Positions 5,699 to 57,134 of a stretch of 64,000 bases of DNA are shown here, piece after piece. The position numbers and the translations under genes are program-made. Source of the DNA: Lingula anatina (taxonomy: Eukaryota; Animalia; Brachiopoda). The stretch lies in contig CM120649.1 of the NCBI GenBank assembly GCA_051362555.1, forward strand, positions 19,482,567-19,546,566, in the 5' to 3' direction. The first letter of the stretch is position 1. Each line of letters begins with the position of its first letter. The notes beneath the pieces were generated by a model. It was not told where the DNA came from. It saw only the letters and a list, made by a program, of their open reading frames with translations, and did not search any database.

Positions 5699-5914
5699 GA
5701 AGTGCATTCCCAGAGATTTAGACCGATCCATTCAGATCTACCTAACTCCCTGGGGGTTCACGCTAAATTGCAGTCAGCCTAGCGTGCACGACAGTTAATT
5801 ACCTCCTTACAGCTCTTAGTAGGCGAGACAGACGCTTAAGCCGGCTAAGCTGACAGTAATCTGGTGAGACTCCCCACAGAGAAAGATCGATCTAAAATTT
5901 GTGGGAATGGGGTC
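5699..5914 (-). mobile_element. Diverged MITE family A copy
   Basis: Shares CCTAACTCCCTGGGGGTTCACGCTAAAT, TGACAGTAATCT.GTGAGACTCCCC and AGATCGATCTAAAA with family A. Confidence 0.75.
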
Positions 5915-21150: not shown

Positions 21151-21412
21151 AAATAAATAAATTATCAATTTGCCACAAAAAAGCAACCAGTTATAAGTCA
21201 GGACAGAACTGGTCACCACCAAACAGCCCACACACCTGGTCACACACCTGTTCTGTCACCTACAGGACATACCAATGACAAACACTGCACCCCAGTGACA
21301 TCAAACACTGTCACACTACAACCACATCCTTCCTTTGACTAAATGTCCTCTGTCTCTTAACTCTCCTAAACAGTTGACACTGGGCCGACTGGTTTGTAAC
21401 AGGACGAACTTA

Positions 21413-21627
21413 GGCTGTATTCCCAGAGCTTTTAGATCGATCTATCCACACGGGGAGTCTCACTAGATTACTGTCAGATAATTTGGCTTAAATGTCCGTC
21501 CCTCCTACTTCAAGCTGTAAGGGGGTAATTAACTTTCGTGTCCGCTCGGCTGACAGCTATTTAGCGTGAATCTCTAGGGAGTTAGGTCGATCTAAAGTAG
21601 ATCAATCTAATCTCTGGAAATGGGGTC
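21413..21627 (+). mobile_element. MITE family A (~215 bp; PIF/Harbinger-like, TWA TSD)
   Basis: GGCTGTATTCCCAGAG...CTCTGGAAATGGGGTC imperfect TIRs flanked by TTA/TTA; near-identical copies elsewhere in the window. Confidence 0.85.
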
Positions 21628-21866
21628 TTAGATTGTGTTTTTGGACAGTTGTCTGTATTGGTGGAAATGACTCCAGTTTTCTTGATACCAGTGTTGTCAC
21701 AGTCATTTCCTTCACCTCGGCTCTTATCCCATATCATGTTTACAGGGACAAATGGTTACAAATATGGTTTGAAAACGGAAGGACTAAAATAGAGTTTGGT
21801 TGGTTTTGATAGACCTTTATGATCTGGAACAGTTCTGTACCCTTGGTTTGATGCAGAACTGACTAA

Positions 21867-25050: not shown

Positions 25051-25969
25051 CTGAAAGAAATTATAACATTTTATCATTATTAAACTCTTATTAAACATAA
25101 AACTAAGGGAAAGGGGCAATTTTTTTCCTGGAACAATGTCATTCAAAAATTTAACTGTATTTTCTTAAAACATACATGACCTGATTATAATATATTACAG
25201 AAATAGAGTTAAGGCACACAACAAATGTCATAACCCTCACTTTCATAAAATCTTTCCCCAAAGGGGGAAAGTGACAGAGGGTGGATAGAAGACTTACATA
25301 ATATTCTGTTCTATTGCAGATGGAGCATAACCCTATACAAGCAGTAACATGTATACTGATAAAAATGCTAATCAATTTTTTCAACATGGCAGAGATTGTT
25401 TGAGAAGTGCACCATCTGTTTGTGTAATTAGCAGGCAACTACTGTCACAACTCAGACATTTCTAACTCCTCCATTTTTTGTATTTAAAAATCCTTTTTAA
25501 CAATTTGCCTGCTACACATTTGACAGAAAGTTCCTCATCAGTTTGATAATGTTAATTGGTAAAATATGTCCTTATATCACTTACTTACAATTACTGTGAT
25601 ATAATATCTGTGAGCATTATGATAATTATTAATGTGACAAGAAAATACATGTAAGTTTCATAACAAAGCATTTTTTTGTGACAAAACAAGAGTGAGTAGA
25701 CATTTTGTCAACCAAAACTTTCAATGTGAAACAGTCCTGCATTGATTCTGAACAGAAGATTCAATATGGCTTCACATTTCTCCTCGTTGTTGCTAAGTGA
25801 TACGTAACTGGAAGGCTTAGTTTGATGTGAGCCATCATCTTAATCAGCCACAATCTACAGACTTTGTCAAACCAAGGCAAAGCTGATTATGATGATATTA
25901 CAATAATGTTATTGATCACAAAGTTGGTCTGAAGTTTCCAGACGTTCTATCCATGGTGTGGTGTTTTTA

Positions 25970-26184
25970 GACCCCATTTCCAGAGATTAGATCGTTCTAC
26001 TTTAGGTCGACCTAACTCCCTGGGGGTTCACGCTAAATAGCTGTCAGCCAGCCAGTCACGAAAGTTAATTACCCCCTTACAGCTTGTAGTAGGCGGGACG
26101 GACATTTAAGCCAGATTATCTGACAGTAATCTAGTGAGACTCCCCGCGGGGATAGATCGATCTAAAAGCTCTGGGAATACAGCC
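25970..26184 (-). mobile_element. MITE family A copy
   Basis: Reverse-complement copy flanked by TTA/TTA on the plus strand. Confidence 0.85.
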
Positions 26185-29100
26185 TTATTTTCAGTGAAAA
26201 GTATTGAGTCGTATCTCCACTCAGTCTTGGTAGAGCTTTCCCTGTCTTGAAGACAAGATCATCACTTATGACACCCGGTCTAACCACCGAGTAACCCCCC
26301 CCCCCCCCCCCCCCCCAACACACACACACACACCTGTGAGGCTGAGGGGGGTACAATACCTGAAACTAGGTCAAGCAGTTAGCTTTGAAACCTCATTGAC
26401 AATAAATATCTAAAAAATATCATTTAAAAGTAATTAATAGGTCAACCAAAAGCAGTTTCTTCATGGTAACTTTATACTAATATTTACTCAAGATTGTCTT
26501 TGCTATAATGAAGTCACATGGCCTAAGCTTGACAAATTTTGATGAATTAAATGGCCAGGTTTACCATACCAGGTTAATTCAAAAGCAAAAGAACCAGGTG
26601 AAAAATATAATTACATGATGTAAGATTGCTTCATGGTTCAAATATCCATTAACTCTAAAATAATGGAGACATTTTAAAAGACTATCTTAAATAACGTCAA
26701 TACACAAAATCTGGAACAAGATGCACTGTCCTCCCTCTTCACTTCAATCATAATGACGGTAAAACTTCACTAAAATCTCATATAAGTGGCCTATTTAGCA
26801 GACATTAATGGCAAACCATAGAGCTGCTAAATCCGTTCTTAATTGAATCAAAATCCCATTGGAGGAGCATTAGGCTAGATGGAGTGGGAGATTTCACCTT
26901 GGTCGCACTTGGTAAACCTCATATTAAACAAATTTTAAGGCGTTCTTCAGCACACAAAAATGTACCCAAATAAACATATTCCTCTGAACCAGCAAATCTC
27001 TCCTGGAATTCTATCCAAAAATAAAGTAATAAAGAAACAAATAATCAAATTACTCGTGGGTTCAAATCTAATAAAGAACCTTTGTGTTAGTTTGGGTGTT
27101 TGATGGGAGAGTGCTCTGCATTTATCATTTATACAGATAAAATATTGGAGTCTTTATTCCCCTATATATTAATATTATTATATTTTTCAATAAAGAAATT
27201 AAGTGTAAAAAATAAACAATGGATTCATCAAATGTTTATAATCAACACAAACAAATGCTTTGTGAAATCAATCAAATGCATGAGTAAATCAAACTATTTT
27301 ATTTTAGATACATATAAATATATATAATAAGAAACGCATCCCAAAGTAAATCACAGTCAGCGGTCCAGTGAACCTAGAAGACAGAACTGGTCTTATCATC
27401 AATTATCTAACATATCGCCAGCAGATGGATGCTGCCATTAAGTTAATTGCGCAGTCATTGTGAAGTGTTTTATGGAGTAATGTCCCTGTTCTGTGGATGC
27501 CACAGGCAAAACACCAGCTGAATCAATTCCTGGCTGATTCATCATTTTTTATTGTCTTGAAATTTGTGATTGTGTGTGTGTGTGTGTGTTTGGGGGGGGG
27601 GGGGGGGGGGGGGAGAAGAAAGAGAGAATTAGGACGCATTACTTATACCAGGTTTTGCTGTTATTTAGAAACTTTTGACAGCAGTTGCTTGTTTACTGTT
27701 ATACATTAAAGATAATGTGTGAGAGAGAGAAAATGAGAGAGAGAATATGGCAAACACAACAGAGAATAAATGTACGGATAATGAATAAAGAATGGTGGAC
27801 ATTACATTGGAATGACATAATAACGACTTAATTGCCACTTTACTTTACCAAAACATTAATCCCACCAAGTTGGATCGATCTATGTAGAATGACAGTGTCA
27901 CTAGGAATGAGCTCAAGGACAGACCCAACTGATGACAGGGTAGGGCAGCCATCTTGGGACCAACGCGCTCCACTGCCTCCCTTTATCTCCATAATTGCCC
28001 TCTTATCAAAAGGAAAAGGTGGGCTTTTTCATCCCAAAGGACTTAATAAGAGACCACTGGGAGTTCTGAATGCTTTTTACATAATCTTTAAGTCATGATT
28101 TACTTAGTTGGTCTAGACGAGGCTGGGGTGAGCCTCCGACGAGAGATCCTTGTTAGATAACTTCCAAAGCTTCATCAAAATGAACCAAATCAAGACGAAA
28201 TTTGACACAAATGATATGTTTTATGGACGCAAATATATAACATTTTCTTTGGCCAATTTAGCCAATTTGGTTCAGGTTTATTATGCTGGAATATGTATGG
28301 GTGATGGAGCAACCAGGCGGAGAGCTAGAACTCTCATTTAATGTCACTGAGAGAGATAACATTACTGTAAGTGAATGAGGTGATTTTCTCACAGACAGAA
28401 ATTGGTCATAATGACCAATAAAACTTTTCCCCAGTTTATCTGGTACTGAAATCTGTGGACATCTATGAAAATATTTTTTTAAAAAGATAAAAAATCTTAA
28501 ATTGAAAGAAAAAACAAACACTTTTTCTCCTCTCAACAATCTTAGAGAAAAAGAAGAGAACAAAACTGAACAAAACTTAATTTGACATGACAGTCAGCAA
28601 TAATAAACATTCAAATTCTATGCTGGTATTAGGATTCAGATACTGTGGTCAAATTAAGATAAACTGCCGACAGACAGCAGGCAGACTATTTTCACCTCAA
28701 GCTAGGAGACAGAACCAAAGACTAGCATCAGAGGGTGATGAATAGCTGAAGAGTCTAGACTACATCTCCCTCATCTTGTATCACATGATGTACAGATCCC
28801 ACCAGACAAACTGTTACAGCAAGTTATTTCGAATCAATGTGTTTGTTTGTCTTCTTATTCCCCCGACCCAGCATATAACTGAACAAACATTTAATTCCAA
28901 TCCAAATACTTCCGCTACCGCCATTCTGTCTCCAAACTAGGATTTCTTTTCTTTTTTCTGCCAAACTGAATGTTTCTTTCACAGACTAATCACGAACCCA
29001 CTGCCAAACATCTTCGACAAAAGAAGTAGAAATCAGCTAATTGTTACAAACTCTTGCCAATTACCACACAGAACCATATGAAGCAGAGAATAAGACGGAA

Positions 29101-34006: not shown

Positions 34007-34581
34007 CTAAGCCGGTAAGTTCCACTGTGGACGCCACTCCGGCCCGTTCGGTTCGCCATCATTGAAATCGTACTCCAAATCTCCCGCTAAAAGTCGGACC
34101 TCCTCAGACCTTCCTAGCTTCGAGTGGGTCTTCATAACTTTGCATCCAGCGTAGTTCAAATCCTGGAAATAGTTAACACCTTGCGCCGGCCAGTGCTGCG
34201 TCATCCGTAACTCTTTGTAAGCGCGCTTCTTCACTTGCATGTCCGCGGCGCTTGCCCAGATCGCTGGAGCCATGGCGACGAACACGACGTAACGCCATCT
34301 GCCGGGGTTATTGCGGTTTTTCATTGGCGGGGCGTTTGCATGGACTGTGCGGGAATCCCAGAGAATCATGGAACCTTTTGGGGCGGCGATGCGTTTAATC
34401 TCGCAGCCCTTACTTTTGTACCATTCCACCTCCATTGCCTTGAGTCGGTAGAAGTCGTTGTTGGTCGGCAGGGTCGGACCGTGCGGGAAAGTTCGGCAAA
34501 ATTCGTCGAAGTATGTTACTGATGTTGGCATGGCAACGAAGCACCAGTCGTCTTCTGCCGTGTCTTCCAGTTGAACGGACC
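34007..34581 (-). CDS. PhyH-like dioxygenase A, exon 4 (distal His, stop)
   Basis: GSVQLEDTAEDDWCFVAMP...APKGSMILWDSRTVHAN...RWRYVVFVAM...TQHWP; stop at 34007-34009; spliced CDS 987 nt = 328 aa. Confidence 0.92.
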
Positions 34582-34757
34582 CTGAGGAATATATGGTCCA
34601 AAATTTGAGTCATGTTTGACGCAGCATCGTGGGCAAGTTTGAGTGTATGCCGCAAAACAATACGTGGAATCTTGCAAAAAAAAAAAAACTGTCGAAGAAC
34701 GTTAAACTAAGATTTTGACAAAAAATAATAATCATAATAAATAATAATAACGCCGAC

Positions 34758-34933
34758 CTTGATAAGCGTGCAGTCCGACACGCTTTGCTGACTGATCTAG
34801 ATGGAGCCACTGGTAGCAGTCCGGGGTGTGGAACTCCTCCTCACCGCCCTCTGGCGGCCGTCCAATCGCCACAGCATCGAAACTGGACAGTAGCTTGTTA
34901 GTTCCCCATAATTTTGCAAACACCGGTTTTGTT
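34758..34933 (-). CDS. PhyH-like dioxygenase A, exon 3 (HxD motif)
   Basis: TKPVFAKLWGTNKLLSSFDAVAIGRPPE...WLHLDQ...AYQ; junctions are phase-consistent. Confidence 0.9.
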
Positions 34934-35021
34934 CTGTAAAAGAAATACATTTAGGAGTAGGAGGAAGGGGTCAGGAGGGCGAGTTACACCCGCTCTCCCC
35001 TTTTTCAACCACTTTAGTCTT

Positions 35022-35504
35022 CAGGGCCGTAGCCTGAGCAAAATGCCAGGGGGGGGCAGTAGCGGACACGAGGGGTCGAAGCCCCCGAGGGGGGAGGGGG
35101 TGGGAGGGGGTGTCCTCCTCCCACGGTGTGGAAAAATTTTAAAAACTGTACGTATAATACTGCATTCTGGTGCATTTTAACTGTTTTATTGCTCAATAAG
35201 AAGTCAGAAATTGTGGGTTCATTTTGCCATAAGTATAGCTCCTCTAAGGATAGCTCCCTAAGGGAGGGTGAGCTTTTTGGCATGAACTGAGTTGGCTAAA
35301 AACAGTACACCTTTGTTAACAGATTGTTGAATGATTGTCTAGTGGCCATGAGTGCATTTTCTCACAGAATTGATACCAACTTTGCAATTATTGTTTTTCA
35401 CCTTTGCGATTATTATTTATTTATTTATTTTATTTTTTTTGCACCTCAAATCCCAGGGGGGGCAGCTGCCCCCCCCCCCTGCCCCCCCGGAGGCTACGGC
35501 CCTG
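35022..35504. mobile_element. CAGG-ended TIR element with 5-bp TSD (GTCTT), in intron 2 of dioxygenase A
   Basis: GTCTT|CAGGGCCGTAGCC...GGCTACGGCCCTG|GTCTT; 13-bp perfect TIR. Confidence 0.85.
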
Positions 35505-35649
35505 GTCTTAAGCTCAAGAGAATGGAGAAGGAGGACCCCCCCCACACACACACACATTTGCGTGCCAGGTCCTACATGCTTGTTAGTGGTGTGGTGCAAT
35601 TTTAGAAGTTTTTTTTTTTTTTTTTTTTTTTTTGCGCTTCCAAACTTAC

Positions 35650-35856
35650 TTGAGTCGTACGGCCCAGGTGGCCTCGAGGTGGCCAACGCGGTAATGCTGG
35701 ATCAGGCTGCGCTTGCTCTTTGGCCACTCACCGTCCTCGCGCAGCGTCGTCACCCAGGTGTGGTACTGCTGACGATAGGTCTCACACTCTTCGGCCTGGA
35801 TGACACCTTCCAGGACTGATAGACCGTTCTCTCTCAGCTCCTTGAGAACCTCTTCA
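35650..35856 (-). CDS. PhyH-like dioxygenase A, exon 2
   Basis: EEVLKELRENGLSVLEGVIQAEECETYRQQYHTWV...VGHLEATWAVRL; TTTCAG acceptor, AA|GTAAGT donor; aligns with paralog B (ELDEKGVVVVEGLL...VGHLEASWAIRL). Confidence 0.9.
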
Positions 35857-36421
35857 CTGAAATGAACAATTTGGTGTTATTGGTGACCTCTAATCTAAAA
35901 TCAGCCAGGGCTTGTCACTGTCTCAACGTGTAGTATGACGGGAAAAAGATTTTAAATTGCACTACCTGTGGTTGTAACGCGTTTTGTTAAAATGATTCAT
36001 TTCTTAACTTGTCGTGTAAAATATTCTCAGAAAAGGTTCTAGCTACTTTCTGTTGTTTATTCCAACATTCTCGGTTCAAATCTGTTGAGAAAATTACGAA
36101 AGTTGAGGGGGGGGGGGGGGAGGGGGAGGGGTTGAAATATTCACAAATATTCAATCCTTTTGCAATTTAAAACCTCATTTATTGGTGACCAAGTTATTCA
36201 TTTTGTTTTTGCCTTTGCATGTCGATTTTATTTGAGTCTTTTAAGAAACTAGTAAAATTGGCTCATAAGCTTTACATGGAAACTACGCTCGCTTCATTTG
36301 TAACGCTAACTGAAGATAAGGAAACGAAGCTGATATTTTGTCGCGAAACTTTATTATAACGCCCAGTCCTACAATGCGTACACCTATAATCGATTTTATG
36401 GGTTTCCTAAATGTAACTCAC

Positions 36422-36450
36422 CACCAACGTTCGTCACTGTATTTCGGCAT
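36422..36450 (-). CDS. PhyH-like Fe(II)/2OG dioxygenase paralog A, exon 1
   Basis: ATG CCG AAA TAC AGT GAC GAA CGT TGG TG|GTGAGT, 29 nt; same length and phase as exon 1 of paralog B. Confidence 0.75.
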
Positions 36451-36831
36451 GATATCACAGAATTCAGTATCCTTATTCAGTTAGTTTGTGTCTTCACGTC
36501 CAAATTGGTAGTAAAGAGGTCACGTTATCAATTCACACACACACACAGACGCATACACACATATAATAAAGGTCTTATTATATACGCTATCGATATTAGG
36601 CTGATTTCACCACAGAGTGCAAGTCTAGTTCATTTAGGGCGAGTAATTAGGTCAAATCCTCAGTAGTAACAATAATCAACTATGGATCTAAAACGTGTAA
36701 TCCATTGTTTATTTCTGTTAAAAGCAGGCCATTATTCACACTTCTGTGATGAGAATAACATTGTACCGGTATTGGTGGGACAAGAATGTACCTGAAGAAT
36801 ACCTTGACCTCATTCAGATTCCATGCGCGTT

Positions 36832-37152
36832 CATCATCATCATCATTGCTCTTCGTCCCGCGTGGGACATAAGGCCACTTTTGTGGTTTCTGTAACAATT
36901 AATTTGAACCGGGAGGGTTGTTGGCCCCCCGCGGTAGGTTTTATGTCAGGGTTTTCCTTCCCATAGCCCGAGCCTCGTTAGCCTAGGCCCGCTAGGACCT
37001 AGTTTCCAGGGTGTACCACGGGGAGGAGAGGTTGACTTGAGTGATCTACGGGTCACCGGCAAGCTACTTAAATTTCACCTTTCGCCCTTGTGGACTAGCC
37101 GGCCTTAACAACACTGGATGTGAAGCCAAGCGCATGAACACCCCTACACCCT
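36832..37152 (-). mobile_element. Short internally deleted RTE-derived non-LTR element (SIDE/SINE-like) with a 5' ribozyme
   Basis: Minus strand: ribozyme, then GGAAGGAAAACCCTG, then GGCCTTATGTCCCACGCGGGACGAAGAG followed by an (ATG)n tail, resembling RTE-clade 3' ends. Flanks ATGCGCGTT (36823-36831) and ACACGCGTT (37153-37161) form a 7/9 direct repeat. No ORF. Confidence 0.7.
36971..37144 (-). ncRNA. HDV-like (nested double pseudoknot) ribozyme candidate, probably partly degenerate
   Basis: Hand fold on the minus strand. P1: GGGGUGU (37144-37138) with ACACCCU (37014-37008), G1-U wobble. L3: UCCCCGU. P1.1: GG at 37007-37006. P4: CUAGGUCC-UAGC-GGGCCUAG (37002-36983). J4/2: GCUAA with putative catalytic C at 36981. 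P2: AACCUC/GAGGCU. One mismatch each in P2 and P3; J1/2 about 105 nt. Confidence 0.7.
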
Positions 37153-37536
37153 ACACGCGTTGCTTAACCTTTTAAGTAAAGAATTCACACCCGATGTATG
37201 TTCGATCTATTTATCCTTTCTAGATAATTCAACATAACTATCAACTGTGACAATTGCCAGAGAGGGGTATTTTTTTACGCGCCGACACAATACACAAACT
37301 TTCAAATAACAATAATAAATAATAATTTTGAAATGAACTTTTTAAATGAGGCCACCGACTCAAAGTAAGAATCGCTTTAACGCTACTTGTTTATGTACAG
37401 ATATTATAAGTAAATACAGATAGTTTAAGTCAATGGAGATAAGAGGTTATCGTGTTGACTTGCTAAATGTGACAAATATATTTCAGTAACAGTGTAACAG
37501 CGCACGTGGCTAGTAACACGTCATATCAGGCCTCTA

Positions 37537-37580
37537 GATGACGTCATCGTGATAAGTCTCCTCTCTCTATATATATAAAA
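37537..37580 (+). promoter_or_regulatory. Putative core promoter of dioxygenase B (CRE palindrome, GATA site, TATA box)
   Basis: GATGACGTCATC (full TGACGTCA), GATAAG, then TATATATATAAAAG about 130 bp upstream of the ATG. Confidence 0.5.
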
Positions 37581-37707: not shown

Positions 37708-37736
37708 ATGGTCAAGTTCGGTGCACCAGGATGGAG
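37708..37736 (+). CDS. PhyH-like dioxygenase paralog B, exon 1
   Basis: ATG GTC AAG TTC GGT GCA CCA GGA TGG AG|GTAAGA, 29 nt, about 130 bp downstream of a TATA-like element. Confidence 0.75.
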
Positions 37737-38458
37737 GTAAGACTGGCTTGAAGTACGAATAACTTTAAGGGTTTTCTTTTTATTTTCAAATTTCCTACAG
37801 CTTAAAAGAATTCAGTATGCCAAACATTTCAGCAAATTTAGATGTGACGAACTTATATGGAATAGATGTACAAACTTTGTGGTTTTAAGGCAATGGCCTT
37901 TCACAATGTAGAGGTAAAGAAAACGTTTATTTTAAGACTAGGCCCTATATTTGAGGCTGTGTATCAGAATTTCCCCAGAAAGACAAACCACCACCACCAA
38001 CCCCTCTACCGCGAATTTGCAACGTTATCGCTCAACGTACCCATTTCGGGTACAGCTTTGTCTTTAGTAAGTAACTTATTATTATTATTGCCAAAACCTA
38101 ACAACACAGTCTTTTCCATTAGCCCTGGATGAGTTCATCCACAGGGAACCGAAAAAACAGTTTTCCTTTCTACTTCGGCGACTTCACCAAAAATCGAAGC
38201 AGAAAACCACGTTGACAGCTGTGGACAATTGATTAGACCGCCCAATTAAATAAAAGTTGTGCAAAATCTTACATGTCCCCGGAAGTGACGAAATCCCGCG
38301 AATTTCAAATCTCAGCGTGCCCTATATCATGTTTACAGAGTCGTTATTAATTACCAATCTTTCAATTTTCAATTTGACGACTGGCCTGATCGATATGTAG
38401 GAAAAAATAATTTTACAGTCAATTAATCTTTTTTCCTTTTTTATTAATGCTGAAATAG

Positions 38459-38772
38459 CCAAAGTATGAAGCAGGAACTTGACGAAAAAGGCGTGGTGGT
38501 CGTCGAGGGCCTCTTATCCAGCCTCGAAAGCGACACCTATAGGCAGCAGTATTATACTTGGGTCACAAACCTTTATCCGGACGGTAGGTGGCCGTCCAAC
38601 ATGAAAGGCCTGATCACTAGTTTCAAAGTTGGCCACTTGGAGGCGTCGTGGGCTATCCGTCTGAAGTCCAAGGCGGTGTTTGAGGAGTTGTGGGGAACAG
38701 CCAAACTGTGGAGCAGCATAGACGCTGTAGCCATAGGACGGCCACCGGAGGATGGAGTAACAGAGTTTGCTG
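38459..38772 (+). CDS. PhyH-like dioxygenase B, exon 2
   Basis: Overlaps ORF 38466-38780: ELDEKGVVVVEGLL...VFEELWGTAKLWSSIDAVAIGRPPE; TAG acceptor, G|GTATTT donor. Confidence 0.9.
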
Positions 38773-39041
38773 GTATTTAGCCCACCAAGTCCTTATTTTT
38801 TATCTTAATAAAGGCGTTGTATTGTTGACACTGTCTCACATAACACATTTTGCTTGGCTCAGTCGGCCCCTTTAAATCATCACATTCATTCCCATGTTAC
38901 TTTTAATGCATTACATTTCCAACATCCATCAGTATGGGCAAAAGCCAAAAAGTTACATGGCACCATTGTGCATTACATTTTACTACATGATCACCGTCAC
39001 ACCTAACACATTCTATGAGCTGTGTTTTCATCTCTCCCCAG

Positions 39042-39154
39042 AGCCTGGTTCCCATTGGCTTCACGTTGACCAGGGTGCTCATAAGGAGGGACTGCATGCT
39101 TACCAGGGGGGTGTGTACCTGGAGGACACAGACTGCGATGATTGGTGCTTTCAG
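39042..39154 (+). CDS. PhyH-like dioxygenase B, exon 3 (HxD motif)
   Basis: PGSHWLHVDQGAHKEGLHAYQGGVYLEDTDCDDWCFQ; CCAG acceptor, CAG|GTATGA donor. Confidence 0.9.
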
Positions 39155-39422
39155 GTATGAACTCCGTGTTGTACAGGTTTCACCGCTAACACAATGTCAC
39201 ACCCAGCAATCGCACCTATCACAATGACGCAGTACGGTGCTCTTAAAAAAGTAGGCAGTAGGCCTGTGTGTGTGTATTATAGAATTGTAACAGCTTTTGT
39301 TCGGCGCCAGACCACGTACCCCATTTCTCTGCTCCACTTTTTTGTTTATCTCTAAATCACTGTACTGTATTCACGGTAATCTTACTATTATGTTCAAACT
39401 GATTGCAACCGCTTTTTTGTAG

Positions 39423-39986
39423 GCGATTTTAGGCTCTCACAAGTATCACCAGGCATTCTGCAAAACCTTTCCCAACGCAGTAAAGATGTCGACCATCACC
39501 GATTTTTACCCATTTGAAAAACCTGGTGAAATAAAATGGTTTGAAGACAGAGGATGCCAGGTGAAACGAATCTCTGCGCCAAAGGGATCAATAGTCATCT
39601 GGGATTCGCGCACCGTTCACGCGAATATCCGGCCAATCAAAGGCCGCCAACACCCTGGTAGGTGGCGCTATGTTACAATGGTTTCCATGACGCCCGCTGC
39701 ATGGGCAACGCAAGCCGATCTGGAGTCCAGGAGAGAGGCGTACAACAATCTAAAGATGACGACACACTGGTCCTCCCAAGACGTCAATGTATTGGGGGAA
39801 TACGATATCAATCAAGTGAACACAGTCACTGAGCTTCCTAGTAACGCGAGATCTCGTGAAGCGCGCCTCCTTGCTGGAGACTTGGAGTATGATTTCGAGG
39901 ACGGTGAAAGCAATGGGCCAGGAAAACCTAAATGGAATACAGGACGCACAGAAGGGGGGTGGTTTAGTTGGTGCAATATTATATGA
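39423..39986 (+). CDS. PhyH-like dioxygenase B, exon 4 (distal His; C-terminal CNII)
   Basis: AILGSHKYH...APKGSIVIWDSRTVHAN...RWRYVTMVSM...WFSWCNII-stop; spliced CDS 1020 nt = 339 aa. Confidence 0.92.
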   Translation, partial: AILGSHKYHQAFCKTFPNAVKMSTITDFYPFEKPGEIKWFEDRGCQVKRISAPKGSIVIWDSRTVHANIRPIKGRQHPGRWRYVTMVSMTPAAWATQADLESRREAYNNLKMTTHWSSQDVNVLGEYDINQVNTVTELPSNARSREARLLAGDLEYDFEDGESNGPGKPKWNTGRTEGGWFSWCNII

Positions 39987-41668: not shown

Positions 41669-41822
41669 GTAGGGTAACATTGTTAAATACCACAATGTAG
41701 AAGTGGAACAAGGTGCATGAACGTAATCTCATCCTTGTTGCTTTTAACTTTTCTTAGGGGGTAATATTACACTATTTAGTGTCGATGAGCAAAACCTTTG
41801 CCTGATGTTATTTAGTTTCAAA

Positions 41823-42261
41823 GGCTGTATTCCCAGAGCTTTTAGATCGATCTATCCCCGCGGGGAGTCTCACTAGATTACTGTCAGATAATCTGGCTTA
41901 AACATCCGGCTTAAACGTACTACAAACTGTAAGGGGGTAATTAACTTTTGTGTCCGCTCGGCTGACAGCTATTTAGCATGAACCCCCAGGGAGTTAGGTC
42001 GATCTAAAGTAGATCGATGTAATCTCTGGAAATGGGGTCTAACTAAGGCTGTATTCCCAGAGCTTTTAGATCGATCTATCCCCGCGGGGAGTCTCACTAG
42101 ATTACTGTCAGATAATCCGGCTTAAATGTCTGTCCTGCCTACTACAAGCTGTAGGAGGATAATTAACTTTCATGTCCGCCCGGCTGACAGCTATTTAGCG
42201 TGAACCCCCAGGGAGTTAGGTCGATCTAAAGTAGATCTATCTAATCTCTGGAAATGGGGTC
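41823..42261 (+). mobile_element. Two tandem MITE family A copies (41823-42039, 42047-42261)
   Basis: Direct tandem separated by TAACTAA; second copy flanked by TAA/TAA; located in intron 1 of the SH3-ZnF gene. Confidence 0.9.
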
Positions 42262-42347
42262 TAAGAATAATTCCTTTTTATCATCCTATCTAGAGACCAT
42301 GAAAAACCTCTTTCATAGTAGAGTATAATAATATATTTTTTCTTCAG

Positions 42348-44687: not shown

Positions 44688-45032
44688 CTGAAATCAGACT
44701 TGATAATGTAAACAATAGTTATAAATAATGAAACTTGTACTGGAGAATTTTAAACGGTTGACTTACCAAGAAATGAAATTGTGTATGATCATTTTGAAGA
44801 ATGTTATCGGCAAGCCTACACCAAATTTATAAAACGGTTAAAGAGCGGAACACACCCTCACACTGACACATTGAGGAATCAGAATTGAACACATATGATA
44901 TGCACACAAAACTACTTGTATTAATTAAACTATCATCTTCAGGAGCAATTTAAAGAAAGTGCTTCACTTGCTGATTTTAGAAACCTTATTTTTTTGTCCA
45001 GTGATCTGGATAAAGAAATTATGTCAGCATAC

Positions 45033-46269
45033 CTATGGAGTAGATCTTTCCTTCCATAGCTATGTAGTGACCTATAGATCGTCCAGAGAATGTGTGGGCA
45101 AGAAGTGTCCACTGCTCTGTCTGAATATCGTAACACTCAATGGGGGTCTGTCCAGTATTTGAGACGCCATGACGGGTTATCCCGCCCAGAACAAAGATCT
45201 TCCTGTCGATGGCCACCATGTCATGCAGTCGTCGCGCATAGAAAATTCCAGGTTTGGATTCCCACGTGCGCGTCGTGAGATCAAAACTGGCAAATGTGTT
45301 GACAGGCTGTCTATCCGTGCTGGACACACCCCCTGAGATGTAGATTTTATCATCAGTGACGGTGGCTGCATGGGAGTGGGTGGGCTCCAGAAGGGGGATC
45401 TCGTCTGTCCACATGTTGGTGTTTACATCATAACACTCCACTGAGTCCAGCACAAACAGATTCTCGCTGCCTCCTCCCAGCACGTATAACTTATGACCTA
45501 TTGCAACGAGAGCAGAGTCTAACCTCAGCCTCTTCATTGGGGAGAGCTCCTGGACCTGCAAATGGCGGGGATCAAAGCGACACAAGGAGTTCATCAGTGT
45601 TCCACCCCCAAAATCTACAATACGACAAATGTATATGAAGTTATCAATGACGGCCACTCGACAGTCACAGCTACCACTGGTGTTACTGAACAACTTGTAG
45701 AACAGTCCACGCTCATGGTTGAACGCCGTCACCTGGAATGGGCGAAATGCTGAACCTTGGTGAATAACCACTAGGCTCTTTTTCGTTGTACGAATTTCAG
45801 AACGTTCGTTAATCACAGGCTGGCGACAGCAGACATCGAGGCCATATTTGAGGCCTTCGATGACATACTGAGTGACCCTAGTGTTGGTCCGCATTAGGTA
45901 GTCCTCCCGCGCTTTTTGCAACTGAGGCTGTGTCATTAACGCAAAATGTATATGACTCATGATTTTCTCAGCGTGCTGAAAGCGTGCTTTATCATGGTGT
46001 AGCCATTGATTGACTAGCTCATACAGACGGAATTCCGATGATATCTTTAGCGCATCGCTCGAGATGTACTGTATCAGTTTCTTAGCATCAAGGTTGATGA
46101 AACTTTCAGTTTTACTGAATGCCTCAAAATTGTCCAGAATATGGACGTCAAAGTGGTCCGTGACTTTGTTCAGAGAATAGACGTCTGCTATCTGGAGAAG
46201 TTCATCCGCATTTTCAAAGTTCAACTTGGACTGGATGAAGTCACAGCACAGGTCTAATGCTCTGTTGAC
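45033..46269 (-). CDS. Kelch-like protein, exon 3 (BACK + Kelch repeats)
   Basis: Overlaps ORF 45019-46224: SEFRLYELVNQWLHHD, RFDPR, LYVLGG...VECYD...W, IYISGG, IFVLGG. The RFDPR motif suggests the KLHL9/13/26/36 group. Confidence 0.95.
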
Positions 46270-53952: not shown

Positions 53953-54700
53953 GGATGGTTGAGTGGTTGGGTATATTGTTTGTAGGGTAGTTGAGTGGTT
54001 GGGTGTGTAGTTTATGGGATGGTTGAGTGGTTGGGTATATTGTTTGTAGGGTAGTTGAGTGGTTGGGTGTATTGTTTGTAGGGTAGTTGAGTGGTTGGGT
54101 GTGTAGTTTATGGGATGGTTGAGTGGTTGGGTATATTGTTTGTAGGGTAGTTGAGTGGTTAGGTGTGTAGTTTATGGGATGGTTGAGTGGTTGGGTATAT
54201 TGTTTGTAGGGTAGTTGAGTGGTTGGGTGTGTAGTTTATGGGATGGTTGAGTGGTTGGGTATATTGTTTGTAGGGTAGTTGAGTGGTTGGGTGTGTAGTT
54301 TATGGGATGGTTGAGTGGTTGGGTATATTGTTTATAGGGTGGTTGAGTGGTTGGGTGTGTAGTATATGGGATGGTTGAGTGGTTGGGTATATTGTTTATA
54401 GGGTGGTTGAGTGGTTGGGTGTGTAGTATATGGGATGGTTGAGTGGTTGGTATATTGTTTATAGGGTGGTTGAACAGGTTGGGTGTGTAGTTTATGAGAT
54501 GGTTGAGTGGTTGGGTGTGTAGTTTATGGGATGGTTGAGTGTGTAGTATATGGGATGGTTGAGTGGTTGGGTGTGTAGTTTATGGGATGGTTGAGTGGTT
54601 GGGTGTGTAGTATATGGGATGGTTGAGTGGTTGGGTGTGTAGTATATGGGATGGTTGAGTGGTTGGGTATATTGTTTATAGGGTGGTTGAACAGGTTGGG
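53953..54700. repeat. Minisatellite, 32-bp monomer with partial 64-bp A/B alternation
   Basis: GGATGGTTGAGTGGTTGGGTATATTGTTTGTA / GGGTAGTTGAGTGGTTGGGTGTGTAGTTTATG, about 23 monomers. Confidence 0.95.
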
Positions 54701-56064
54701 CAGGTGTGTTTTGGGAGTGCGTGGGGTTAGAAGAGCACATGGTTGGAATAATGGAGTCATGCATGGTTAAAGTTCTGTTGCAACTTTTTCCTGGCTCACC
54801 CCCTCAAAAATGGTCCATTTTGCCTAGACTATCAAATCATGCATAAACACAATCAACATAAAGGTGCATGCAAAGGAGCAAGATTATGATAGTTATTACT
54901 GAGGTGGGTGAGATTGGTAAATGATGACAATGTGTTAGGTGTGACAATTTGCTGGATGTGACAATGTGTTAGGTGTGACAATGGAACTTGTTCATGATTC
55001 TACAGTGAAGATAGAGGCGGGAGAAGGGAACTATTAGAACAATGAAGGAACTGTTAGGACCAAAACATTCAAGTGGTCAACAAGTTAGTACTAACAAAAT
55101 GCAGGAAGAGGCAAAAATTCAACTTCCATGATTTCACAATTCAACAGTTGTACCTAGCAATTGTTGGCTCTACAACAAGTTTACAAGAACAATATCAAAG
55201 TTGTATATAGTCTTTTCATTAAAAATTATTTTTCTTTCAAAACTGTATCACAGAAATTAAATCTTGTTGTAATTATGACAAGGAATCTTGACCAAGACAG
55301 AAATATCAATCATGTAGACAAAGAAAGCTTGAGTTATGCCAAAAAATTAACCCAAGCTACAATGGTAAAATGCGACATATAATTTTGTACAAACCTGTGG
55401 TCACACGTCAGTAATTCTGACATTAAAAATCTAAGGTGTGCTCAGACTGGGACTTGAAACTTGGATCGGTTTAGGTCTCAACTAACCCTACAACCTACCC
55501 AACAATAACATCAGTGGGCTGAACAGTCAACATGTAAACATAAACATAAACTCTGGTACAGATAAGTTAAATTCTCATACACTTTCATTTTAAATCACAT
55601 ACACTGTTGATACATTGAATTGAAGCCTTAAAGAGAAAGCTTAAAAGTGTTATTTACAAGGAAAATGGATAAACTGAAACATACACCATTAAAAGCAACA
55701 TTGATCCAAGTCTACACCAAAGTCTGAGCACAACTGAATGGACATCTATAAATAATGGGATGTCTGACCACCAAACTGACCCCCACAAGGAGGACAGCTA
55801 AGAGGGTCAAGTACTCACTTGTTCCAAAGTCAAAACATTAGTCTTAGCATCAGCCAGCGCAATTCTACCCACTGACCTTGACCTCCCGAGTTTGCGATTA
55901 CATGGAAGCCACTGGAGAGGCAGCAAGTTAAAATTGGAGAAGAGATGTTAGTTGATGGAAAATGTCACACCTAACACACTGGTAGATTTCAAACACAATG
56001 TTAGTGTCACCATTTTTAATCTGTAACCTCCAACATCATATCGCTGTGTCAGATATGTACGTGT

Positions 56065-56606
56065 CACAGCCAGCACACTTTACATCACCCCTGACACATT
56101 TGATTTCACACCCGGCACAATTTATTTCACACCTGACACATTTGATTTCACACCCGGCACAATTTATTTCACCCCTGACACATTTGATTTCACACCCGGC
56201 ACAATTTATTTCACCCCTGACACATTTGATTTCACACCCGGCACAATTTATTTCACACCTGACACATTTGATTTCACACCCGGCACAATTTATTTCACAC
56301 CTGACACATTTGATTTCACACCCGGCACAATTTATTTCACACCTGACACATTTGATTTCACACCCGGCACAATTTATTTCACACCTGACACATTTGATTT
56401 CACACCCGGCACAATTTATTTCACACCTGACACATTTGATTTCACACCTAACACAATTTATTTCACACCTGACACATTTGATTTCACACCTAACACAATT
56501 TATTTCACACCTGACACATTTGATTTCACACCTGACACAATTTATTTCACACCTGACACATTTGATTTCACACCTGACACAATTTATTTCACACCTGACA
56601 CATTTG
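56065..56606. repeat. Minisatellite, 21-bp monomer / 42-bp dimer
   Basis: ATTTCACACCCGGCACAATTT + ATTTCACACCTGACACATTTG repeated about 12 times; explains the spurious ORF 55998-56621. Confidence 0.95.
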
Positions 56607-57134
56607 ATGTCAAGTAAATAACAGCCACATAAATTTCAATATAACCCTCATTAGTGTTAATGAATGGTAAGTGAAAGAATTAAATAAAGTTATATATGAA
56701 AACAGAGTTGAGTATGTTAAATAAACAAATAGAGCGTAAGGGGAGAAGCAGTATTATAACATTTAGTCTCAATATTAGTCTGAAAGGGTCCAGTGCATAC
56801 AACTCAGAGATAGAAAGAAAGTGCCTTCCAAGGTTAATATTTAACTTATTCTCCATCTAAAATTAATTTTGCTCCACTTCTCCTCCCCGCCTCCCCTGAG
56901 CTCCCCCCTTCTCCAACCCAACCCCTCCCCCATCTCAAATCCTCCTCCTCCCGTCTCTTCCACCTCTCCGCCTCCACTTTCTTTTTTACCTACTCCCCAC
57001 CCAATCTCTCTCTCTCCCCTCTCCTCCCCCTCCTCCCACTCGCCACCCCCTCCTCTCTTCCCCACCCTCCCCTCCCCTCTCATCTCCTCCCCCCACTCGC
57101 CACCCCCTCCTCCCACTTCCCACCCCCTCCTCAC

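What the first reader, a model, noticed from the sequence alone, without database searches (positions are those of the whole stretch)
36971..37144. HDV-like self-cleaving ribozyme hidden between two divergent dioxygenase genes
Seen: every element of the HDV/CPEB3 nested double pseudoknot appears in the correct order on the minus strand. There is a 7-bp P1 with a G1-U wobble (GGGGUGU/ACACCCU), a 7-nt L3 (UCCCCGU), GG directly after P1 for P1.1, an 8-bp P4 hairpin, J4/2 GCUAA with C at 36981, and P2 (AACCUC/GAGGCU). J1/2 is long (~105 nt) and has its own pairings (CCGGC/GCCGG, GUGA/UCAC). Known: HDV-like ribozymes process the 5' ends of R2, RTE and other non-LTR elements; CPEB3 has L3 UUCACGU, and antigenomic HDV has J4/2 GCUAA. 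Inference: a lineage-specific ribozyme family. This copy has a U-U mismatch in P3 and an A-C mismatch in P2, so it may be slow or inactive.
Basis: partly seen in the sequence, partly recalled or inferred. Interest (0 to 1): 0.85.

Follow-up and report, generated by a model that had tools for sequence, protein, structure and literature searches.

The report
Ribozyme-headed shortened RTE retrotransposon insertion
This is a recent 324-base jumping-gene insertion, present on some chromosomes and absent on others, that likely kept only the two ends of a longer retrotransposon and starts with an RNA predicted to cut itself like the hepatitis-delta ribozyme, an arrangement already known from other animals.

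Summary
The HDV-like fold is there as described (minus strand, G37144 to 36971, C36981) and exceeds chance: 1 hit in the window, 0 to 1 in 150 shuffled windows. It is not a stand-alone ribozyme tied to the dioxygenase genes. It heads a 324-bp insertion (36832-37155) flanked by a 6-bp target-site duplication; the empty site stands in 4 of 4 DNA runs laid. After the ribozyme come an RTE 5'-UTR motif and then, abruptly, the last codons, hairpin and (ATG)5 tail of an RTE-type LINE. Deeper contigs carry the same ribozyme but continue into other sequence at 36879, so this is likely an internally deleted copy of a young RTE family; whether the short form itself multiplied is unresolved and leans to rare. 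The P3 U-U and P2 A-C mismatches are shared by other copies, not private decay. An 11-nt leader duplicates the P1 strand and could give a second cut site. Cleavage is predicted, not shown. Ribozyme-headed RTEs and two-ended derivatives are known: a new member of a known kind.

The parts
37156..37161 (-). Target-site duplication, upstream copy (AACGCG)
   Evidence: empty-site joint 36825->37156 with 6 letters fitting both sides in X3 and X4
37145..37155 (-). 11-nt leader made of repeats of the element's own first bases; 37152-37146 can pair 7 of 7 with the P1 3' strand (alternative P1, A1-U instead of G1-U)
   Evidence: both duplexes -10.1 kcal/mol; belongs to the insert by the empty-site joint
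36971..37144 (-). HDV-like ribozyme, predicted cleavage 5' of G37144
37138..37144 (-). P1 5' strand (pairs with 37014-37008)
   Evidence: 3 of 7 pairs changed on both sides in the related motif in L067
37034..37137 (-). J1/2, 104 nt, structured; helix 37102-37098 with 37060-37056 has a G-C to A-U double change among family variants
37008..37033 (-). P2 5' strand, P3 (U-U at 37027/37015), L3 37024-37018, P1 3' strand
   Evidence: L3 last base U or C among copies
36971..37007 (-). GG for P1.1, P4 hairpin, J4/2 with predicted catalytic C36981, P2 3' strand
36879..36970 (-). RTE-type 5' UTR; 36962-36936 matches the end of the conserved RTE 5'-UTR domain
   Evidence: Same motif in RTE-1_NV, RTE-4_NV, RTE-8_HRo in the supplement of PMC5786205; motif precedes an endonuclease ORF in L027
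36878..36879 (-). Internal-deletion junction between the 5' module and the 3' tail
   Evidence: Loose ends on both sides of this point in all four DNA runs (at 36900 on the 5'-module side for X10) and behind 36878 in all four RNA runs
36832..36878 (-). RTE-type 3' end: last 11 codons plus stop, predicted hairpin (-13.3 kcal/mol), (ATG)5 tail
   Evidence: RTE 3' ends of the same make in PMC5786205 supplement; far greater contig depth
36826..36831 (-). Target-site duplication, downstream copy (AACGCG)
34007..36450 (-). Left neighbour: predicted 4-exon, 328-aa PhyH-like gene; TATA-like box 36584-36578, 248 nt from the insert
   Evidence: weak Pfam PhyH hit
37708..39986 (+). Right neighbour: predicted 4-exon, 339-aa paralogue; TATA-like box at 37572

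Best explanation
This is a polymorphic 324-bp insertion with a 6-bp target-site duplication, likely an internally deleted copy of a young RTE-clade retrotransposon, whose 5' end is an HDV-like ribozyme predicted to cut itself 5' of G37144. In the parent element the ribozyme would free the element RNA from a host read-through transcript and set a defined 5' end (inferred from R2, L1Tc and RTE biology). The RTE protein would bind the 3' hairpin and tail and prime reverse transcription at a nicked target, which gives the duplication (inferred). The middle was lost either in a source copy or by a template switch during this insertion, and repeated re-priming at the 5' junction likely left the 11-nt leader of P1 repeats. 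Here the ribozyme is a passenger, not a regulator of the flanking genes. Odds: identity as RTE-derived ribozyme head 0.85; measurable cleavage of the family form about 0.65; of this copy in context about 0.5.
For: Shown: empty site in 4 of 4 DNA runs, exact 330-nt skip with 6 ambiguous letters in X3 and X4; filled 5' junction in X1, which may be the window's source. Contig depth on the ribozyme body is about 290-1600 against 39-68 on the left flank in X1, X3 and X10, and about 27,000 on the tail in X1 and X3: more copies elsewhere, not a count. The deepest 5'-module contigs leave the window at 36879 into other sequence. 36962-36936 matches RTE 5' UTRs printed in PMC5786205's supplement. The same motif precedes a 609-aa endonuclease ORF in L027 whose homologues are about 1000-aa APE+RT proteins; about 10 of the 18 long ones end in a D-R-x-x-W motif (counted by eye), as does the frame running into the window's tail in the loose-end consensus (read by eye). 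L067 has the same L3, a fully paired P3 and a P1 with 3 of 7 pairs changed on both sides, upstream of the same motif. Of 9 family variants mapped, 0 lie in the 55 paired or catalytic core bases, 1 is the last L3 base, and 2 form a compensatory J1/2 pair. Weak: three RNA reads stop matching in a way that fits 37144 (bin arithmetic).
Against: No cleavage assay. No Rfam model matched (nor L067/L112). Pseudoknot-free folding favours alternatives by 7.8 to 15.9 kcal/mol over the nested native-like fold, P2 and P1.1 energy not counted. RNA depth on the ribozyme was only 1-6 reads in 3 of 4 runs, with no pile-up of starts, and read ends cannot be told from element boundaries. The full-length parent was not recovered, so 5' and 3' parts may come from different families. 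Covariation rests on one outside sequence and one variant pair. The same 5'-UTR motif also occurs in one Ingi and one R4 element (PMC5786205).
Confidence: 0.85

Rival explanations
1. The short form is itself an amplifying non-autonomous family (a SIDE or bipartite RTE-N), not a one-off deletion; it would be mobilised in trans by the RTE protein.
For: It has all that a SIDE needs: ribozyme, 5' UTR, 3' hairpin and tail, and it sits in a clean TSD. Such families exist (PMC3414825; PMC5786205).
Against: At 36897, X1 depth 290.7 is the sum of two figures (211 + 79.7), and two X1 contigs are loose before 36879, i.e. the long form; in X4 only about 4 of 45.3 is left for a junction contig (arithmetic). 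Contigs drop rare forms and 385 pieces were not shown, so this is not decisive.
Confidence: 0.25
2. The insert is a hybrid: the 5' module of a low-copy family joined to the 3' tail of a different, much more abundant family, like R2/R1 hybrid SIDEs.
For: Tail depth is roughly 20 to 90 times that of the 5' module in X1 and X3; no microhomology is seen at the junction (read by eye).
Against: Heavy 5' truncation of one LINE family gives the same depth step; sequences upstream of the tail agree poorly among contigs (about 0.5), as expected of many short truncated copies.
Confidence: 0.3
3. The ribozyme is a host-adopted regulator of the two divergent dioxygenase-like genes, cutting upstream or antisense transcripts.
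For: It lies 248 nt upstream of the left gene's TATA-like box, in that gene's orientation.
Against: The insertion is missing from chromosomes in 4 of 4 DNA runs; in X3 and X10 the empty allele carries the whole flank depth.
Confidence: 0.05
4. The fold is a dead or chance look-alike within a repeat.
For: U-U in P3, A-C in P2, strong alternative folds, no Rfam hit.
Against: Chance is excluded by shuffles and by the related motif in L067. R2 ribozymes often carry P2 mismatches, and one cleaving R2 ribozyme has a P3 mismatch (PMC3774820). The family has inserted recently enough to be polymorphic.
Confidence: 0.12

Closest known systems
Bipartite non-autonomous RTE LINEs (RTE-N2_Lch, RTESINE1/2, WALLSI3, Bov-A; Kojima 2018, PMC5786205: parts 1-4 of 5 of the text and supplement passages read)
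   Same: Only the 5' end (here 266 nt) and 3' end (47 nt) of an RTE; conserved 5'-UTR motif; microsatellite tail; the paper links RTE 5' ends to self-cleaving ribozymes.
   Different: Those are amplified families; here amplification of the short form is not shown and leans to rare. The parent family is not identified.
R2 SIDEs and R2/R1 hybrid SIDEs of Drosophila (Eickbush and Eickbush 2012, PMC3414825: abstract and one section read)
   Same: HDV-like ribozyme with long J1/2 joined to a LINE 3' end, with no ORF.
   Different: RTE-type ends, not R2; not in rDNA; 6-bp TSD; cleavage not tested here.
HDV-like ribozymes at RTE 5' ends (Ruminski 2011, not held; known here through PMC6765202 passages and PMC5786205) and drz-Agam-2 with structured J1/2 (Webb 2016, PMC4908430: abstract and passages read)
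   Same: Nested double-pseudoknot core at the element's 5' end; large structured J1/2 that could pull P1 and P2 together.
   Different: Not detected by Rfam's models; family-wide U-U in P3 and A-C in P2; duplicated P1 strand in a leader.
R2 junctions with a duplicated P1 strand (Eickbush 2013, PMC3774820: passages and one section read)
   Same: Two P1 strands in tandem, so two possible cut sites.
   Different: There the duplicate is 28S target DNA; here it repeats the element's own first bases.

Membership tests
HDV-like ribozymes | P1 of 6-7 bp starting with G1-U/G1-C, followed by GG for P1.1 | tested here: met
HDV-like ribozymes | L3 of about 7 nt, U-C-C-N-C-G-Y (consensus recalled) | tested here: met
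   UCCCCGU; last base C in other copies
HDV-like ribozymes | P3 of 3 bp and P2 of 5 bp or more | tested here: inconclusive
   P3 has 2 pairs plus U-U; P2 has 4 contiguous pairs, an A-C, then A-U; such defects occur in R2 ribozymes
HDV-like ribozymes | J4/2 with catalytic C after P4 | tested here: met
   GCUAA, C36981
HDV-like ribozymes | Covariation of the helices across relatives | tested here: inconclusive
   P1: 3 of 7 double changes against L067; one J1/2 double change in the family; too few sequences
HDV-like ribozymes | Match to a curated Rfam model | tested here: not met
   the models are lineage-specific and also missed L067/L112
HDV-like ribozymes | Mg2+-dependent self-cleavage at G1 needing the catalytic C | not testable with these tools
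   RNA reads too few to show starts
Bipartite non-autonomous RTE element | 5' part from an RTE 5' UTR | tested here: met
   Motif match to RTE-1_NV and others; long form leaves at 36879
Bipartite non-autonomous RTE element | 3' part from an RTE 3' end with microsatellite tail | tested here: met
   resemblance of motifs, not an alignment to the parent
Bipartite non-autonomous RTE element | No ORF; inserted by TPRT with a TSD | tested here: met
   No ORF of 80 aa or more in the insert; 6-bp TSD with empty site
Bipartite non-autonomous RTE element | Multiple genomic copies of the short form | tested here: inconclusive
   One copy in the window; depth arithmetic leans to rare; no genome held
Bipartite non-autonomous RTE element | Autonomous parent of the RTE clade by RT phylogeny | not testable with these tools
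   Parent ORF not recovered; only up to 30 letters of loose ends are shown

The most novel reading that the evidence does not exclude
A currently active RTE family uses an HDV-like ribozyme that cuts well despite a U-U in P3 and an A-C in P2, rescued by its 104-nt structured J1/2; and this allele is a non-autonomous element caught at birth, made in one insertion event, with a duplicated P1 strand that gives it two cut sites (G37144 and A37152).
Probability: 0.3. Interest if true: 0.5.

Novelty: new member of a known kind. Interest (0 to 1): 0.3.

Why it matters
Modest. It adds an RTE-linked HDV-like ribozyme that Rfam misses, with two natural variant sets that differ in predicted misfolding, a ready test of how much core damage a structured J1/2 can offset. 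The filled and empty alleles show directly that the insert's 5' end falls at the predicted cut site plus a short repeat leader, and they allow an allele-specific test of any effect on the neighbouring genes. It does not point to a new kind of system.

Tried and rejected
No whole genome is held, so copies could not be collected directly. Rfam: nothing relevant. No second copy in the window. The look-up of sequencing runs listed no RNA holder; that is no evidence on expression. RNA lay: 148 reads laid from 6-25% of four runs, mostly tail-only; none on the flanks next to the insert or on the first coding exon of either gene, so strand could not be calibrated and nothing follows about this locus being silent. 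Viral contigs: 0 matches to the UTR motif, 3 to a core pattern, no relative of the L027 ORF. Prokaryote genomes: 46 core-pattern matches; none of these 49 passed the descriptor, so I treat them as chance. The metagenome scan stopped at 120 rows and was swamped by one repeat family; 1 of 169 loci held (L067) passed the relaxed descriptor, and L112 has the same core but failed on P1. The MAFFT alignment of three sequences did not put P1 in register, so pairs were compared by coordinates. PDB searches gave nothing useful. Ruminski 2011 and Webb 2009 are not held, so their figures and supplements, which list many RTE ribozymes and might include a relative, were not seen. Four paper searches found no description of this family, but the organism's name is coded, so that is weak. 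Rejected: host-gene regulator (polymorphic); private decay of P2/P3 (shared by copies).

Full report
Observation. A descriptor of the HDV fold, written from recalled features after seeing the sequence, hit only this site in the window. It gave 0 and 1 hits in 150 shuffled windows at two stringencies, and 1 and 0 in 20,000 shuffles of the local 351 nt. Rfam found nothing relevant and plain folding gave z = 0.32; neither handles a pseudoknot with a 104-nt insert well. The site lies between two divergent 4-exon paralogues (about 52% identical, HxD...H) with a weak PhyH hit; intron structure points to an animal genome.

What surrounds it. Downstream of P2 lie 92 nt that include a motif shared with the conserved 5'-UTR domain of RTE LINEs, as printed for RTE-1_NV and others in the supplement of PMC5786205 (the core word occurs 90 times there). 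Then, with no ORF between, come 47 nt that read as 11 codons and a stop, fold as a hairpin and end in (ATG)5. RTE 3' ends in the same supplement have the same make. The whole is flanked by AACGCG on both sides.

It is an insertion. Contigs of four DNA runs from four studies were laid on 36550-37450. X3 and X4 show a joint 36825 to 37156 that skips 330 nt with 6 letters fitting either side; X1 and X10 also hold empty alleles with local differences. In X3 and X10 the empty allele has the full flank depth. X1, possibly the window's source, also holds the filled 5' junction (37124-37230, 0 differences, depth 23.5). So the insert is 36832-37155, 324 nt, and it is polymorphic.

It belongs to a family. 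Depth on the ribozyme body is several times flank depth in all four runs, and on the tail some hundred times (an indication, not a count). The deepest 5'-module contigs leave the window's sequence at 36879, and many tail contigs and reads leave it behind 36878. The junction is therefore where a longer element was shortened. The frame that runs into the tail in the loose-end consensus has a D-R-x-x-W motif (read by eye). The same motif ends about 10 of 18 long APE+RT proteins homologous to the ORF that follows the UTR motif in L027. Whether the short form has spread is open: depth sums at 36897 leave no room for a junction contig in X1 and about 4 of 45 in X4, which leans to a single or rare copy, but contigs drop rare forms and most pieces were not shown.

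Is the fold under selection? Nine variants from other copies were mapped (43 rows were not shown). None lies in the 55 paired or catalytic core bases; one is the last L3 base (U to C); 37100 and 37058 change a J1/2 G-C to A-U; 37107 turns G-U into G-C; the rest are in a loop or the UTR. A contig over 36988-37120 at several times flank depth has 0 differences (X4), so the P3 U-U is the family state. In a metagenome contig (L067) the same UTR motif is preceded by a core with identical L3, a fully paired P3, a 102-nt J1/2 and a P1 in which 3 of 7 pairs are changed on both sides; it was 1 of 169 loci scanned. This is supportive but thin. Against activity: nested folding prefers alternatives by 7.8 to 15.9 kcal/mol for this copy and 6.0 to 9.1 for the second variant set, pseudoknot energy not counted and phasing of the variants assumed. 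PMC3774820 reports P2 mismatches in about a third of R2 ribozymes and a P3 mismatch in one that cleaved. [quoted passage not shown]

RNA. Four raw RNA runs gave 1-6 reads on the ribozyme body in 3 of 4 runs and no pile-up of starts. Bin arithmetic puts the end of one read's match at exactly 37144 and fits the same for two more; three others sum to 38 letters and are ambiguous. This fits a family 5' end at G37144 but cannot tell a cut RNA end from an element boundary.

Mechanism. Shown: fold, TSD, empty site, two-part anatomy, other copies. Inferred from known non-LTR biology (PMC6765202 passages; PMC3414825): the parent is transcribed by read-through, the ribozyme frees its 5' end, the RTE protein primes reverse transcription at the 3' tail, and the middle was lost by deletion or template switch. 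The 11 nt upstream of G37144 repeat the element's first bases, and 37152-37146 pairs with the P1 3' strand as well as the native strand does. They likely arose by repeated priming at the 5' junction and could give a second cut site, as proposed for duplicated P1 strands in R2.

Comparison and verdict. It works like an R2 SIDE and is built like the bipartite RTE elements of Kojima 2018. Membership of the HDV-like class is met on most sequence features, doubtful on P2/P3, unmet on Rfam and untested on cleavage. Earlier notes of this scan describe the same arrangement in other genomes; they are unchecked and not counted as support. Ruminski 2011 and Webb 2009 could not be read, and four searches found no account of this family. 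New member of a known kind; interest 0.3.

Noticed in passing
L067:1452-1675 and L112:135-357: HDV-like cores with identical L3, long J1/2 and either a tiny P4 or an alternative P2/P4 register, upstream of the same RTE 5'-UTR motif, in metagenome contigs; missed by Rfam.
   Followed up: partly
L110:110-580: Another short element with the RTE 5'-UTR motif followed closely by an RTE-like ORF end: likely a bipartite RTE in another organism; it did not pass the HDV descriptor.
   Followed up: partly
most of L001-L120: A high-copy repeat with 71-nt tandem copies of the RTE 5'-UTR domain; L027 links the motif to an endonuclease ORF.
   Followed up: partly
window 37232-37266: A 35-nt stretch 76 nt upstream of the insert with contig depth about 1000-2300 in three runs: a fragment of another abundant repeat.
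   Followed up: no
window 5705-5908, 21407-21632, 25964-26190, 41821-42266: A dispersed repeat of about 220 nt, five copies, two in tandem, 80-93% alike.
   Followed up: no
window 53953-54700 and 56064-56612: Two minisatellite arrays with strong GC skew.
   Followed up: no
window 45019-46224: Long exon of a BACK-Kelch (KLHL-type) gene on the minus strand.
   Followed up: no
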